Shown: one piece after another, positions 6,491-8,491 of the stretch
Layout of the letters: every line of letters begins with the position of its first letter
Position numbering within the stretch: position 1 is the stretch's first letter
IMG/VR virus record: IMGVR_UViG_2667527953_000001
Source of the DNA: a virus
Taxonomy: Monodnaviria > Loebvirae > Hofneiviricota > Faserviricetes > Tubulavirales
Direction: 5' to 3' (one strand)
DNA length: 11,140 nucleotides
Notes under the pieces: generated by a model
The model's database searches: none
What the model saw: only the letters and a program-made list of their open reading frames with translations
Told to the model about the DNA's origin: nothing
Program-made: the position numbers and the translations under genes

Positions 6491-8491
6491 TCAGGGACAG
6501 TTATTGTCACAAGTCCAAGGGTCGGCTCCGCCGCCCCCACCCGCCGCGCGGGAGCGCGTCGTGCGGTGGCGTGAAGCCGACGAAAGAAACAGAGATTCAA
6601 ATGAGCTGCCGTTTCTGATTTCATCTGCGCGGATTTTTTCTGCGGGGGTCATACGGCGGACAACGCAGCCCATAAAACGGGTTATGACCGGAACGGGGCC
6701 AAACATGAAACCGGAAATCACCGGTGCGCAGGGTTCACCGTAACGGTTAATACGGGGCTTACCACCTTCCTGCGGCTGAACGTAAAACGGACGAAGCAGA
6801 CGTTCAGAACAGAAGAAACCGCCGTTCAGCAGGATATAGGTCCGGAAATCGCCTGCATCACAGGCCATGCGGATGGCCTCCAGTTCGGCGACCTGCTGCG
6901 GCGTGAACTGCTGCATATTGATATGATGTGCTTCAAGCGGTGAACGAAAAGTACGCATCTGGCGGTAAGCCGTGACGGACGGAACGCCAAAGAACTGGAA
7001 CAGGCGAAGGCGCGTTGCTTTCTGCCAGCAGGCGGCACGGCTGACGGCATCACAGAATGAACGGGCAGAATAACGGTCATTCAGGGCGGTAATACCATCC
7101 GCACTGACATCACCCGCCATTTTGGTGATGTACTTCACGATGTAACGGAAACCATCACCCTTTTCAGGGTCAATAGCCTCAATACGAATACGGTGCTCTT
7201 TCGCCCCCTTTTCATCCGGCTCATCGCGCATGGCCTCTTCACGGAAAATGGCCAGCACCGTTGCGCTCTCATGGGGATTGCAGTAAATCAGGAAATTCCA
7301 GTGCGTTGTACCGTCAGCATGAGGCTCGACCGTGCGCAGACCGGGTATCTGAATACCGGCTTTATCCAGTCTGCGGCAGACCCGACGCCAGACGGTATTC
7401 AGCCAGGCGTGCGAATCCTTAACGGTCGGGCAACCTGCTTCCCACCATTTTTTATTCGGACGAGAATGCCATTTTCCGGCAACCTTAAAACTGGTCGTCG
7501 GGTGAAAACGTGACGGCGTGGTGAGCACGATGAAGTAGCCGGACAGCCCCATATCTTCGGACAGTTCACAGACGGCCTTTCCACGAACGCAGAGTTCAGC
7601 AATCCGGTTTTTCGGATTCGAAACAGAGGCGTTATGCGCATCTTCCAGCGTACAGACCAGCTCATTAAACGCATCAAAGACACCGGAGGACCGGAGATAC
7701 TTTTTCACGCGTTTACTGCGGACAGCAAACAGGTCACGATGCCAGTCAGAAATATAAGGCGCGTTGCGGTTCAGTATGCCGAGCATGCGACAGACCTCAT
7801 TAACCCGCTGGTCACGGACAACCCGCAGGAAACGGGTGACAAAAGCCAAATCAGTCAGACGCTTAAGCAATCCCTCATCGCCGTAACGCTCATGATAAGT
7901 GGCATAAACGGGTGCGAAATCAAAGCCGGAGATGGCCCGAAAATAGGCCATCACATTGAGAAGGTGATGCTCTGGTACATCACTATAAATGGCCCGGGAA
8001 ACAAGGCAGTCACGAACAACCGAATCAGCCACCTCAGCAATCTGCTCATCAGTGCAGAAAAGCGAGAATTCATAAGGGTCTCCGTCCTGATTGAAGAAAG
8101 CAAAACGGTGCGCGGACTCAAGCGCCATCAGCGCATTTTTCACACCGAGCTGGTAAACCAGACGGCAGAAAGCATGCGCCACGGTGAACGAAAACGAGCC
8201 AAACTGTGATACCAGTCCGGCAGCCCTGCCCCTGTCAGCGAGAGATAAATCCGTGCAGTTAATTCCGTAAATCACACGGTCAACCTGCGTGTTACGTGGC
8301 AATGCGAGCTGTGAAGATAAGGTCCCGACCTCATCACGATACTGGCGGGAAAGCGTGGCAAGGTTGCGGGTGGCAACATCGCGCTCAGTCCGAAAATGCT
8401 CGCGTTCGGGCAGCGTCAGGCAGGGACGACCAAGGGCAACGGATGCCGCGTCGATGGCGTTATACGCTGTAAGGATGGCTGATTCAGTCAC
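6491..8491 (-). CDS. Rolling-circle replication initiator (phiX174 gpA / P2 A-like endonuclease; functional pII)
   Basis: Large ORF with the superfamily-I RCR active-site motif RYIVKYITK (7122..7148; compare phiX174 gpA YVAKYVNK, two Tyr four residues apart). Proposed start is GTG 8491 behind a GGGGGG Shine-Dalgarno; the ORF-track start at 8590 is TTG and would overlap the promoter/operator repeats. Start uncertain. Confidence 0.8.

What the first reader, a model, noticed from the sequence alone, without database searches (positions are those of the whole stretch)
6491..8491. Large phiX174 gpA / P2 A-type initiator in place of a canonical inovirus pII, with a long C-terminal extension
The initiator has the two-tyrosine motif YIVKY at residues 483-487 of the 699-aa ORF, positioned as I recall the active-site tyrosines of P2 A (about 450/454), and about 200 residues beyond the motif that end in [16 protein letters not shown]. 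Ff pII is about 410 aa. The nick site (plus-strand origin) for this enzyme class usually lies within or near its own gene, which leaves the function of the 339-bp repeats open.
Basis: partly seen in the sequence, partly recalled or inferred. Interest (0 to 1): 0.4.

Follow-up and report, generated by a model that had tools for sequence, protein, structure and literature searches.

The report
P2-type initiator carrying its own origin
This filamentous prophage of E. coli replicates with a phage-P2-type nicking enzyme rather than the classic M13-type protein, and the DNA site that the enzyme most likely cuts lies in the last 30 bases of its own gene; this is a known kind of replication module, so the finding is correct but ordinary.

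Summary
ORF 6491..8590 (-) is 699 aa, carries YIVKY and ends in [16 protein letters not shown]. The real start is probably GTG 8491 (666 aa), which puts the two tyrosines at 450/454, exactly aligned with P2 A Tyr450/454.

The protein belongs to the P2 A family: Pfam Phage_GPA 9e-49, PHROG 91 2e-128. It is about 99% identical to RefSeq "replication endonuclease" in tandem inovirus prophages of E. coli.

The "C-terminal extension" is not an add-on. Residues up to about 628 form the folded body shared with P2 A. Residues 629-666 are predicted disordered and are encoded by a DNA element.

That element is CTTGGACTTGTGACAATAACTGT (minus strand 6519..6497). It matches the P2 origin, which contains the annotated P2 nick, at 19 of 23 bases. 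I found it once per locus, on the gene's sense strand, in 77 of 90 relatives' loci. It occurs in all three codon phases, over the stop codon, or up to 345 nt downstream of it. It is therefore a DNA signal, not a peptide motif.

This is most likely the plus-strand origin. The predicted nick is at G6516|G6515 (+/-1 nt). A GC-rich hairpin lies just 5' of it here, but not in all relatives.

The module is a new member of a known kind. Interest is low to moderate.

The parts
6491..8491 (-). Initiator gene (GTG start, 666 aa): a P2 A / Phage_GPA-family rolling-circle replication endonuclease.
   Evidence: Pfam PF05840 9.1e-49, 166.6 bits against a cutoff of 31.4. PHROG 91 'nicking at origin of replication' 2.3e-128. 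BLASTP against P2 A 1e-36, 28% identity over residues 153-558. 99% DNA identity to a RefSeq 'replication endonuclease'. AlphaFold pLDDT 87, pTM 0.83.
8492..8590 (-). In-frame upstream part of the maximal ORF (TTG 8590). Probably untranslated leader, promoter and operator DNA with TGCACAATTGCA-type repeats.
   Evidence: No Shine-Dalgarno sequence before the TTG, but GGGGG before GTG 8491. A 16-bp tandem repeat lies at 8562-8596. Homologues start at the GTG position.
7295..7327 (-). Metal-binding motif [11 protein letters not shown] (residues 389-399). It is the HUH motif in the variant form H-W-N.
   Evidence: Translation. E389, P390, H391, D393 and H397 are invariant in 23 homologues. All close relatives have HWN, whereas P2-like proteins have HWH.
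7121..7144 (-). Catalytic motif YIVKYITK, with Tyr450 and Tyr454.
   Evidence: Translation. Both tyrosines and K457 are invariant. The motif aligns residue for residue with P2 A Y450-IAK-Y454.
6497..6519 (-). Predicted plus-strand origin core CTTGGACTTGTGACAATAACTGT. The predicted nick lies between G6516 and G6515 (+/-1 nt) on the minus strand of the window, taken here to be the viral strand.
   Evidence: It is the only match in the window at up to 6 substitutions. It matches the P2 ori at 19 of 23 bases, and that P2 stretch contains the annotated nick at nt 29892. A match to the consensus occurs in 77 of 90 loci: one per locus, on the sense strand, in all codon phases. Two copies lie 8,739 bp apart in a tandem prophage.
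6521..6581 (-). GC-rich imperfect hairpin ending 1-2 nt 5' of the origin core. It lies inside the codons for the disordered tail.
   Evidence: dG -28 kcal/mol, z = -4.5, 0 of 200 shuffles fold as well. Comparable hairpins occur in 7 of 11 relatives tested there. An 88%-identical E. coli relative lacks it, so it is an accessory feature at best.
6035..6460 (-). Downstream 141-aa ORF in the gene V position (putative ssDNA-binding protein). It starts 31 nt after the initiator's stop codon.
   Evidence: ORF. PHROG 30648, 1.2e-95, function unknown. The same position is occupied by a 139-145 aa ORF in relatives. The function is inferred from position only.
8639..8827 (+). Divergently transcribed 62-aa ORF in the rstR/repressor position.
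   Evidence: ORF. PHROG 2503, 1.1e-28. Annotated as hypothetical in RefSeq. The role is inferred from position.

Best explanation
The gene at 6491..8491 (-) encodes the phage's rolling-circle replication initiator. It is a P2 A (Phage_GPA) family endonuclease with a metal site (EPH...H-W-N) and two catalytic tyrosines (Y450, Y454). Its cognate plus-strand origin lies inside the last 30 nt of its own coding sequence: CTTGGACTTGTGACAATAACTGT, minus strand 6519..6497.

Inferred mechanism, by analogy with P2 A and phiX174 gpA:
1. The enzyme nicks the viral strand at about G6516|G6515 and binds covalently to the 5' end.
2. Host helicase and polymerase extend the 3'-OH around the circle. In a tandem prophage, they extend to the next origin copy one unit (about 8.7 kb) downstream.
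3. The second tyrosine cuts the regenerated origin and reseals the displaced strand into a unit-length ssDNA circle for packaging.

The last ~38 codons are constrained by the DNA (hairpin plus nick core), not by the protein. The peptide [16 protein letters not shown] is a by-product.

Shown here: family membership, motif conservation, and the DNA-level conservation and position of the origin core. Inferred: the nick position, strand polarity, catalysis, and the origin-to-origin production of ssDNA.
For: Family:
- Searches give the profile and pairwise matches. One search gives the best structural match, a Vibrio phage replication protein at E = 1e-19.
- The tyrosines are invariant and aligned with P2 A 450/454.

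Origin:
- GenBank annotates the P2 nick at nt 29892. That base lies in GCGCCTCGGAGTCCTGTCAATAACTGT, and the window's gene tail matches it at 19 of 23 core bases.
- Across 90 loci (606 kb) the core occurs 77 times on the gene's sense strand, exactly once per locus. The antisense strand has one weak hit.
- 41 copies lie inside the ORF, 23 overlap the stop codon and 13 lie 2-345 nt downstream. Codon phases are 41/21/15.
- Conservation drops sharply at both edges of a roughly 25-nt block, from information content of about 2 bits to about 0.1 bit.
- The 'Cys' codon varies (NNY, NNF, NNS) in close relatives, while CAATAACT is kept.
- In the inovirus genome records of fs2, Dolos and pre-CTX, the motif is on the record's own strand, at or just after the end of the initiator gene.
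- BLAST with the core finds it under 'replication protein A' genes in about 160 phage records.
- AlphaFold leaves residues 629-666 disordered.
- The motif is unique in the window and occurs once per unit in a tandem prophage, 8,739 bp apart.
Against: - No biochemical or genetic test of nicking exists for this phage lineage in anything I could read.
- The exact P2 cleavage bond rests on a one-base GenBank feature. The primary paper (Liu and Haggard-Ljungquist 1994) was not held.
- The second His of HUH is Asn here, so full activity is an assumption.
- The survey sites were selected by similarity to the consensus, with AATAAC/ATTAAC required. Part of the apparent invariance at positions 15-20 is therefore built in.
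- 13 loci lacked the motif. Most of these are short or truncated contigs.
- The adjacent long hairpin is not conserved in an 88%-identical relative.
Confidence: 0.85

Rival explanations
1. PWTCDNNCP is a functional peptide motif of the enzyme, for example a Cys-containing metal or DNA-contact element. On this view the plus-strand origin lies elsewhere, in an intergenic region or in the 339-bp repeats, as in Ff phages where the origin is in the large intergenic region.
For: The peptide appears conserved in the protein alignment of several homologues. The window has long non-coding repeats of unknown role.
Against: - The same DNA block occurs in all three reading phases, across stop codons and up to 345 nt downstream of the gene.
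- The Cys codon is replaced by Tyr, Phe or Ser in close relatives, while the DNA upstream of it is unchanged.
- The tail is predicted disordered.
- No second copy of the core exists in the window, including in the repeats.
- In P2 this very sequence contains the annotated nick.
Confidence: 0.05
2. The gene is a decaying remnant in a defective, rearranged prophage, and the H-W-N substitution marks an inactive enzyme. On this view nothing here replicates any more.
For: The literal HUH motif is broken. The window holds a deleted secretin copy with 145-bp triplication and variable 339-bp arrays.
Against: - The ORF is intact, and its 90%-identity cluster has 2,063 members, many of them full length.
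- HWN is kept across relatives down to 41% identity in Escherichia, Salmonella, Xenorhabdus, Providencia and Morganella, with all other catalytic residues invariant. That pattern fits purifying selection on a working variant.
- Complete tandem copies exist in closed genomes.
- In YpfPhi, disruption of the replication gene YPO2274 abolishes phage production (PMC4266046). The identity of that gene to this one was not tested here.
Confidence: 0.07
3. The conserved block is mainly a termination or regulatory signal between gene II and gene V (a transcription terminator or translational coupling element), not the replication origin.
For: A hairpin precedes the block, and it always lies just upstream of the next gene's ribosome-binding site in the inovirus loci.
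Against: - In P2-like phages the same block lies 200-550 nt inside gene A, far from any gene boundary.
- In P2 it is the annotated nick site.
- No T-run follows the hairpin in the window.
- The hairpin itself is dispensable in a close relative.
Confidence: 0.03

Closest known systems
Phage P2 gene A protein with its internal ori (Peduoviridae; also 186, HP1/HP2, PV94, Klebsiella and Burkholderia P2-likes)
   Same: - Same Pfam family, with alignable residues 153-558.
- Tyr450/Tyr454 in the same register.
- EPH..DG..HW motif.
- Origin core on the sense strand in the 3' part of the initiator gene, matching at 19 of 23 bases.
- An earlier paper used the same homology argument to place a P2-like ori inside the rep gene of Vibrio phage PV94 (PMC3986222).
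   Different: - The host element is a ~8.7-kb ssDNA filamentous phage, not a 33-kb tailed dsDNA phage.
- HWN replaces HWH.
- The protein is shorter (666 against 761 aa) and ends right after the ori, whereas P2 A continues for a further 142 residues.
- No gene B homologue was seen.
- P2 has only a 5-bp hairpin next to the core.
Initiators of Vibrio/Shewanella inoviruses fs2, VFJ, Vaf1, pre-CTX 'RstA-like' and Dolos
   Same: - Inovirus context and the same protein family (29-33% identity).
- The same origin core at or just after the end of the gene: fs2 2361-2383, pre-CTX 3161-3183, Dolos 2147-2169.
- A hairpin lies 5' of the core in pre-CTX and Dolos.
   Different: - These proteins have the canonical HWH motif.
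- They are only distantly related.
- In pre-CTX and Dolos the core lies outside the ORF.
Gene II of YpfPhi (YPO2274), CUS-1 and UPPhi901, the dif-integrating inoviruses of Enterobacterales
   Same: - Tandem prophage of about 8.7 kb in E. coli, adjacent to hipBA in a close relative.
- The same module order.
- A double dif-like attP hairpin.
- The literature describes gene II and gene V as a shared module in this group, and YPO2274 as essential for phage production (PMC7307601, PMC4266046).
   Different: I could not obtain the YpfPhi, CUS-1 or UPPhi sequences, so identity to them is untested. Those papers, as far as I could read them, do not place the plus-strand origin.
phiX174 gpA and its 30-nt origin
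   Same: - Two-tyrosine motif GF-YVAKYVNK against [11 protein letters not shown].
- The origin lies inside the initiator gene on the viral strand.
- The phiX origin CAACTTG|ATATTAATAAC shares CTTG and AATAAC with the core here.
- Microvirus initiators appear among the structural matches.
   Different: - There is no significant pairwise similarity beyond the Tyr motif (E = 0.058).
- The spacing between CTTG and AATAAC is 5 nt in phiX174 and 10 nt here.
- The resemblance of the origins may be coincidental.
Ff (M13/f1/fd) gene II protein and intergenic-region origin
   Same: It has the same role and the same gene position, upstream of gene V, in an inovirus.
   Different: - No profile match above threshold was found.
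- Ff pII is about 410 aa (my knowledge).
- The Ff origin lies in the large intergenic region, not in gene II.

Membership tests
Phage_GPA (PF05840) / P2 A-type rolling-circle initiators | Sequence profile match above the curated threshold | tested here: met
   166.6 bits against a cutoff of 31.4, E = 9.1e-49. PHROG 91 2.3e-128 over residues 156-699. BLASTP against P2 A 1e-36.
Phage_GPA (PF05840) / P2 A-type rolling-circle initiators | Two active-site tyrosines spaced Y-x-x-x-Y (P2 A Tyr450/Tyr454) | tested here: met
   YIVKY falls at residues 450-454 in 666-aa numbering. Both Tyr are invariant in 23 homologues and align with P2 A 450/454. That these are the P2 active-site residues is stated in PMC3986222, citing Odegrip and Haggard-Ljungquist 2001.
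HUH endonuclease superfamily (to which P2 A belongs) | His-hydrophobic-His metal-binding motif | tested here: inconclusive
   The motif reads H397-W398-N399. The first His and the upstream E389-P390-H391 and D393 are invariant. The second His is Asn in every relative from 86% down to 41% identity, while P2-like proteins have HWH. The literal motif is not met. Whether Asn serves as the ligand cannot be told from sequence. HUQ variants in circovirus Rep are a precedent (my knowledge).
Phage_GPA (PF05840) / P2 A-type rolling-circle initiators | Cognate origin sequence on the sense strand in or beside the initiator gene | tested here: met
   The core at 6519..6497 (-) matches the P2 ori (which holds the annotated nick) at 19 of 23 bases and the family consensus at 22 of 23. 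77 of 90 loci carry it, against one antisense hit.
Phage_GPA (PF05840) / P2 A-type rolling-circle initiators | Site-specific nicking with covalent attachment to the 5' end | not testable with these tools
   This needs purified protein or in vivo mapping.
Ff-type gene II protein (M13 pII) | Profile match to the gene II / G2P family | tested here: not met
   The only hit is a sub-threshold match to PF23343 REP_ORF2-G2P, 17.4 bits against a cutoff of 27.8. No other gene II family appears.
phiX174 gpA (Microviridae initiators) | Detectable sequence similarity over the catalytic domain | tested here: not met
   BLASTP E = 0.058, over 62 residues around the Tyr motif only. Structural matches to microvirus initiators are weak, at E about 1e-3.
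YpfPhi / CUS-1 / UPPhi group of XerCD (dif)-integrating inoviruses | Inovirus module order plus an attP made of two inverted dif-like sites; tandem integration | tested here: met
   Zot, Phage_Coat_A and Secretin hits with the expected gene order. A forked hairpin with XerC- and XerD-like arms lies at 9173..9080 (-), dG -42.5, z = -9.2. Tandem copies lie next to hipBA in E. coli 100416.
YpfPhi / CUS-1 / UPPhi group of XerCD (dif)-integrating inoviruses | Sequence identity of gene II to YPO2274 / UPPhi901 gene II | not tested
   No YpfPhi, CUS-1 or UPPhi sequence was reachable.

The most novel reading that the evidence does not exclude
The phage may be a phiX174/P2-style replicon inside an inovirus on both strands. 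The plus-strand origin would be the P2-type nick core embedded in the disordered tail of the initiator gene.

Each 339-bp unit starts with about 75 nt that are ~94% identical to the segment between rop and ori of ColE1/pMB1-type plasmids. From memory, that is where the PriA-dependent primosome assembly site (n'-pas / ssiA) lies. The AAGCGG-containing strand, which would be the active one, is the viral strand here.
Probability: 0.3. Interest if true: 0.5.

Novelty: new member of a known kind. Interest (0 to 1): 0.3.

Why it matters
The result gives a concrete, testable position for the plus-strand origin of a group of enterobacterial filamentous prophages related to those linked to virulence (YpfPhi and CUS-1 type).

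With XerCD-type integration, virion ssDNA from a tandem prophage is thought to be made origin-to-origin. Knowing the origin therefore defines the unit that gets packaged, and which rearranged copies can still produce phage.

It is also a clean example of a cis-acting DNA signal masquerading as a conserved C-terminal peptide motif. That is a caution for annotation, and for anyone engineering or truncating these initiators.

None of this would surprise a specialist in P2 or rolling-circle replication.

Tried and rejected
- PDB sequence search found no relative. Foldseek against PDB gave nothing significant, only weak hits to AAV, parvovirus and Helitron HUH domains at E > 0.1.
- NCBIfam gave no hit. 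Rfam gave no hit in the window or in the ColE1-like plasmid.
- Megablast of the gene against the phage collection found no match.
- E. coli dif with up to 3 mismatches is absent from the window and from the 26-kb relative locus. The XerD arm alone is also absent. Only searching with the XerC arm led to the attP hairpin.
- A literature search for the origin sequence as text returned only unrelated primers. The primary papers of Liu and Haggard-Ljungquist 1994 and Gonzalez 2002 are not held.
- I first thought a ~60-nt hairpin was an obligatory part of the origin, because 8 of 12 upstream regions fold with z <= -3.2. An 88%-identical E. coli relative has z = -0.27 and keeps only a short GC hairpin. 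P2, L089 and L011 also have only 5-6 bp stems. I therefore downgraded the hairpin to a frequent accessory feature: stems of >= 4 bp occur in 68% of sites against 37% of random windows.
- The consensus fold of five relatives showed little usable covariation.
- The 339-bp unit and its ColE1-like segment do not fold better than shuffles.
- I considered a Cys/metal role for the tail and rejected it on the reading-frame evidence.
- I did not test for an internal in-frame start that would give a pX- or A*-like protein.
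Full report
**The observation.** One search lists ORF 6491..8590 on the minus strand: 699 aa from TTG, containing [11 protein letters not shown] and ending [18 protein letters not shown]. The TTG has no ribosome-binding site. The in-frame GTG at 8491 is preceded by GGGGGATTA. RefSeq annotates the 99%-identical gene of E. coli 100416 from that GTG (2001 bp, 'replication endonuclease'). Homologues' N-termini also line up with it. The product is therefore most likely 666 aa, and the tyrosines become Y450 and Y454.

**The protein.** Pfam places it in Phage_GPA (PF05840) at 9.1e-49, 166.6 bits against a cutoff of 31.4. 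PHROG 91, 'nicking at origin of replication', matches at 2.3e-128 over residues 156-699 of the long ORF. BLASTP against P2 A, translated from AF063097, gives 1e-36 with 28% identity over residues 153-558. YIVKYITK (450-457) sits opposite P2 YIAKYISK (450-457).

In an alignment of 23 homologues, both tyrosines, K457, E389, P390, H391, D393 and H397 are invariant. One detail differs from the P2-like proteins. The HUH motif reads H-W-N in this protein and in all relatives down to 41% identity, from Escherichia, Salmonella, Xenorhabdus, Providencia and Morganella. More distant relatives have H-W-H.

No solved structure is related by sequence. An AlphaFold model built on the alignment is confident (pLDDT 87, pTM 0.83) except for residues 629-666. 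Its best structural neighbour is a Vibrio phage replication protein at E = 1e-19, followed by weak matches to microvirus initiators. PDB matches are not significant. Similarity to phiX174 gpA is limited to the tyrosine motif (E = 0.058). An Ff-type gene II profile is not matched above threshold.

**The 'C-terminal extension'.** P2 A has 307 residues after Tyr454, so 212 residues here is not an extension. Residues up to about 628 are folded and alignable with the family.

The terminal peptide led to the main result. The P2 record annotates the ori nick at nt 29892 inside gene A. The DNA there reads GCGCCTCGGAGTCCTGTCAATAACTGT and encodes APRSPVNNC. The window's gene ends GACCCTTGGACTTGTGACAATAACTGTCCCTGA, encoding [10 protein letters not shown]. 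The 23-nt cores match at 19 positions.

**DNA signal or peptide motif?** I fetched 80 loci encoding relatives from bacterial genomes, four close relatives from metagenomes, and the phages P2, pre-CTX, fs2, Dolos and PM2.
- A match to CTTGGACTTGTGTCAATAACTGT (up to 6 substitutions, AATAAC or ATTAAC required) occurs in 77 of 90 loci. It occurs exactly once per locus, always on the initiator's sense strand.
- The antisense strands of the same 606 kb give one weak hit.
- 41 copies lie inside the ORF, 23 overlap its stop codon and 13 lie 2-345 nt downstream. The first base falls in codon phases 0, 1 and 2 in 15, 41 and 21 loci.
- In a 50%-identical relative (L090) the block lies 345 nt past the stop, after another small ORF and just ahead of the next gene.
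- In close relatives the 'Cys' codon is TAT, TTT or TCT, while CTTGGACTTGTGACAATAACT is untouched.
- Conservation falls from about 2 bits to about 0.1 bit at both edges of a roughly 25-nt block. The selection criteria inflate positions 15-20 but not the rest.
- A BLAST with the core finds it under 'replication protein A' genes in about 160 phage records, including P2-like phages of Klebsiella, Burkholderia and Mannheimia, HP2, and the inoviruses pre-CTX, Vaf1 and Dolos.

The block is therefore a DNA element tied to this enzyme family. In P2 it is the annotated nick site. In the window it is unique.

By alignment with P2 nt 29892, the predicted nick lies between G6516 and G6515 on the minus strand, with an uncertainty of one base. 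The primary paper was not available. The phiX174 origin, CAACTTG|ATATTAATAAC, shares CTTG and AATAAC but with different spacing. I regard this as a lead only.

**Hairpin.** The 61 nt just 5' of the core (6581..6521) fold into a GC-rich imperfect hairpin: -28 kcal/mol, z = -4.5, and none of 200 shuffles folds as well. Comparable hairpins with unrelated sequences abut the core in seven of eleven relatives folded: L087, L088, L090, L003, L004, pre-CTX and Dolos, with z from -3.2 to -7.7. P2, L089 and L011 have only a 5-6 bp stem there. An 88%-identical E. coli relative has lost the long hairpin, with z = -0.27. Over all sites, a perfect stem of >= 4 bp in the 30 nt upstream occurs in 68%, against 37% of random windows from the same loci. 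A hairpin next to the nick is thus frequent but not obligatory.

**Context and mechanism.** The window's minus strand carries these features in order:
- 339-bp repeats;
- a secretin (pIV);
- an attP region;
- a divergent 62-aa ORF;
- the initiator;
- a 141-aa ORF in the gene V position;
- small ORFs, including an 86-aa ORF in the major-coat position;
- a Gly/Ser-rich pIII-like protein;
- a pVI-position ORF;
- Zot/pI;
- 339-bp repeats again;
- a deleted secretin copy.

In E. coli 100416 the same phage forms tandem copies beside hipBA, with origin cores 8,739 bp apart on the same strand.

On the phage-sense strand, 9173..9080 folds into a forked hairpin made of two inverted dif-like sites: -42.5 kcal/mol, z = -9.2. 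This matches the double dif-like structure that the YpfPhi review describes for YpfPhi by analogy with CTXphi (PMC4266046).

I infer the standard two-tyrosine rolling-circle cycle. It starts and ends at the core. From a tandem prophage it would run from one origin to the next, releasing a unit-length circle. Catalysis, polarity and the role of Asn399 are inferred, not shown.

**Comparison and novelty.** The module is a P2 A-type initiator plus its cognate origin, carried in an inovirus. Relatives in characterised inoviruses exist: fs2, VFJ, Vaf1, pre-CTX and Dolos. The literature treats gene II and gene V as a shared module of YpfPhi and UPPhi, and treats the YpfPhi replication gene as essential (PMC7307601, PMC4266046). 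A P2-like origin has been placed inside a rep gene by homology before (PV94, PMC3986222). I found no paper that places the origin in this enterobacterial inovirus lineage, but the inference is routine. I rate it a new member of a known kind, of low to moderate interest.

**A lead on the 339-bp repeats.** This lies outside the finding's coordinates. The first ~75 nt of each unit are ~94% identical to a segment of small ColE1/pMB1-like plasmids lying between rop and the origin region. ColE1-type origins carry a PriA-dependent primosome assembly site, n'-pas or ssiA, downstream of the RNA/DNA switch (PMC3167613). That ssiA lies in this exact sequence is my recollection of pBR322, not a tool result. 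The AAGCGG-containing strand, which would be the displaced and therefore active strand in ColE1, is the viral strand here. The repeats could thus be a multimerised minus-strand origin. The segment does not fold unusually well, so this rests on homology alone.

Noticed in passing
window 9080-9173 (minus strand sense); second copy 253-346: A forked hairpin formed by two inverted dif-like sites (AGTGCGCATAA-TGTGACACGCG-TTATGTTGAAA and its partner) around a GC-rich stem-loop. dG is -42.5 kcal/mol, z = -9.2. It looks like a CTXphi/YpfPhi-type attP(+) substrate for XerCD integration of the single strand.
   Followed up: partly
window 1031-2443 and 10474-11140 (339-bp units); for example 1365-1443: The first ~75 nt of every 339-bp unit are ~94% identical to a segment of small mobilizable ColE1/pMB1-like plasmids between rop and ori (353 plasmid records). 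From memory, that is the position of the PriA primosome assembly site (n'-pas/ssiA). The AAGCGG strand is the viral strand. It is a possible multimerised minus-strand origin. The fold is not exceptional.
   Followed up: partly
window 400-992: A deleted secretin (pIV) copy. The N-terminal coding part is fused to the C-terminal end (…ALPPELA|[11 protein letters not shown]…), and a 145-bp segment is triplicated at 99% identity (536-977). This suggests recombination within the tandem prophage, or an assembly artefact.
   Followed up: no
window 8520-8596: Operator-like repeats (TGCACAATTGCA / TGCACAAATGCAATTG, 16-bp period x 2.2) lie between the initiator start and the divergent 62-aa ORF 8639-8827 (PHROG 2503). 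This is probably the regulatory switch region.
   Followed up: no
L087 455-1417 and L088 3919-4872 (relatives at 59-63% protein identity): In these related inovirus loci an IS110-family (DEDD) transposase gene sits directly upstream of the GPA-type initiator. This suggests that those relatives integrate by a transposase rather than by XerCD.
   Followed up: no
window 7295-7297 (Asn399 codon): The second histidine of the HUH motif is Asn (H-W-N) throughout the enterobacterial inovirus clade, but His in Photobacterium inovirus-like and P2-like relatives. It is a clade-wide active-site variant of unknown consequence.
   Followed up: partly
many loci, e.g. L008, L010, L012, L013, L022, L025, L026, L028: In 23 loci the initiator ORF ends inside the origin core. 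In those at offset -17 (such as the loci listed), the TAA within CAATAAC is the stop codon, so gene end and origin are physically fused.
   Followed up: yes
L086 (phage PM2) 3508-3530 versus annotated 'cleavage site' 2253-2254: PM2 gene XII contains a diverged copy of the core (6 mismatches, AATAACTGT kept) about 1.25 kb away from the 'cleavage site' feature annotated in the record. I did not resolve which of the two is the PM2 origin.
   Followed up: no
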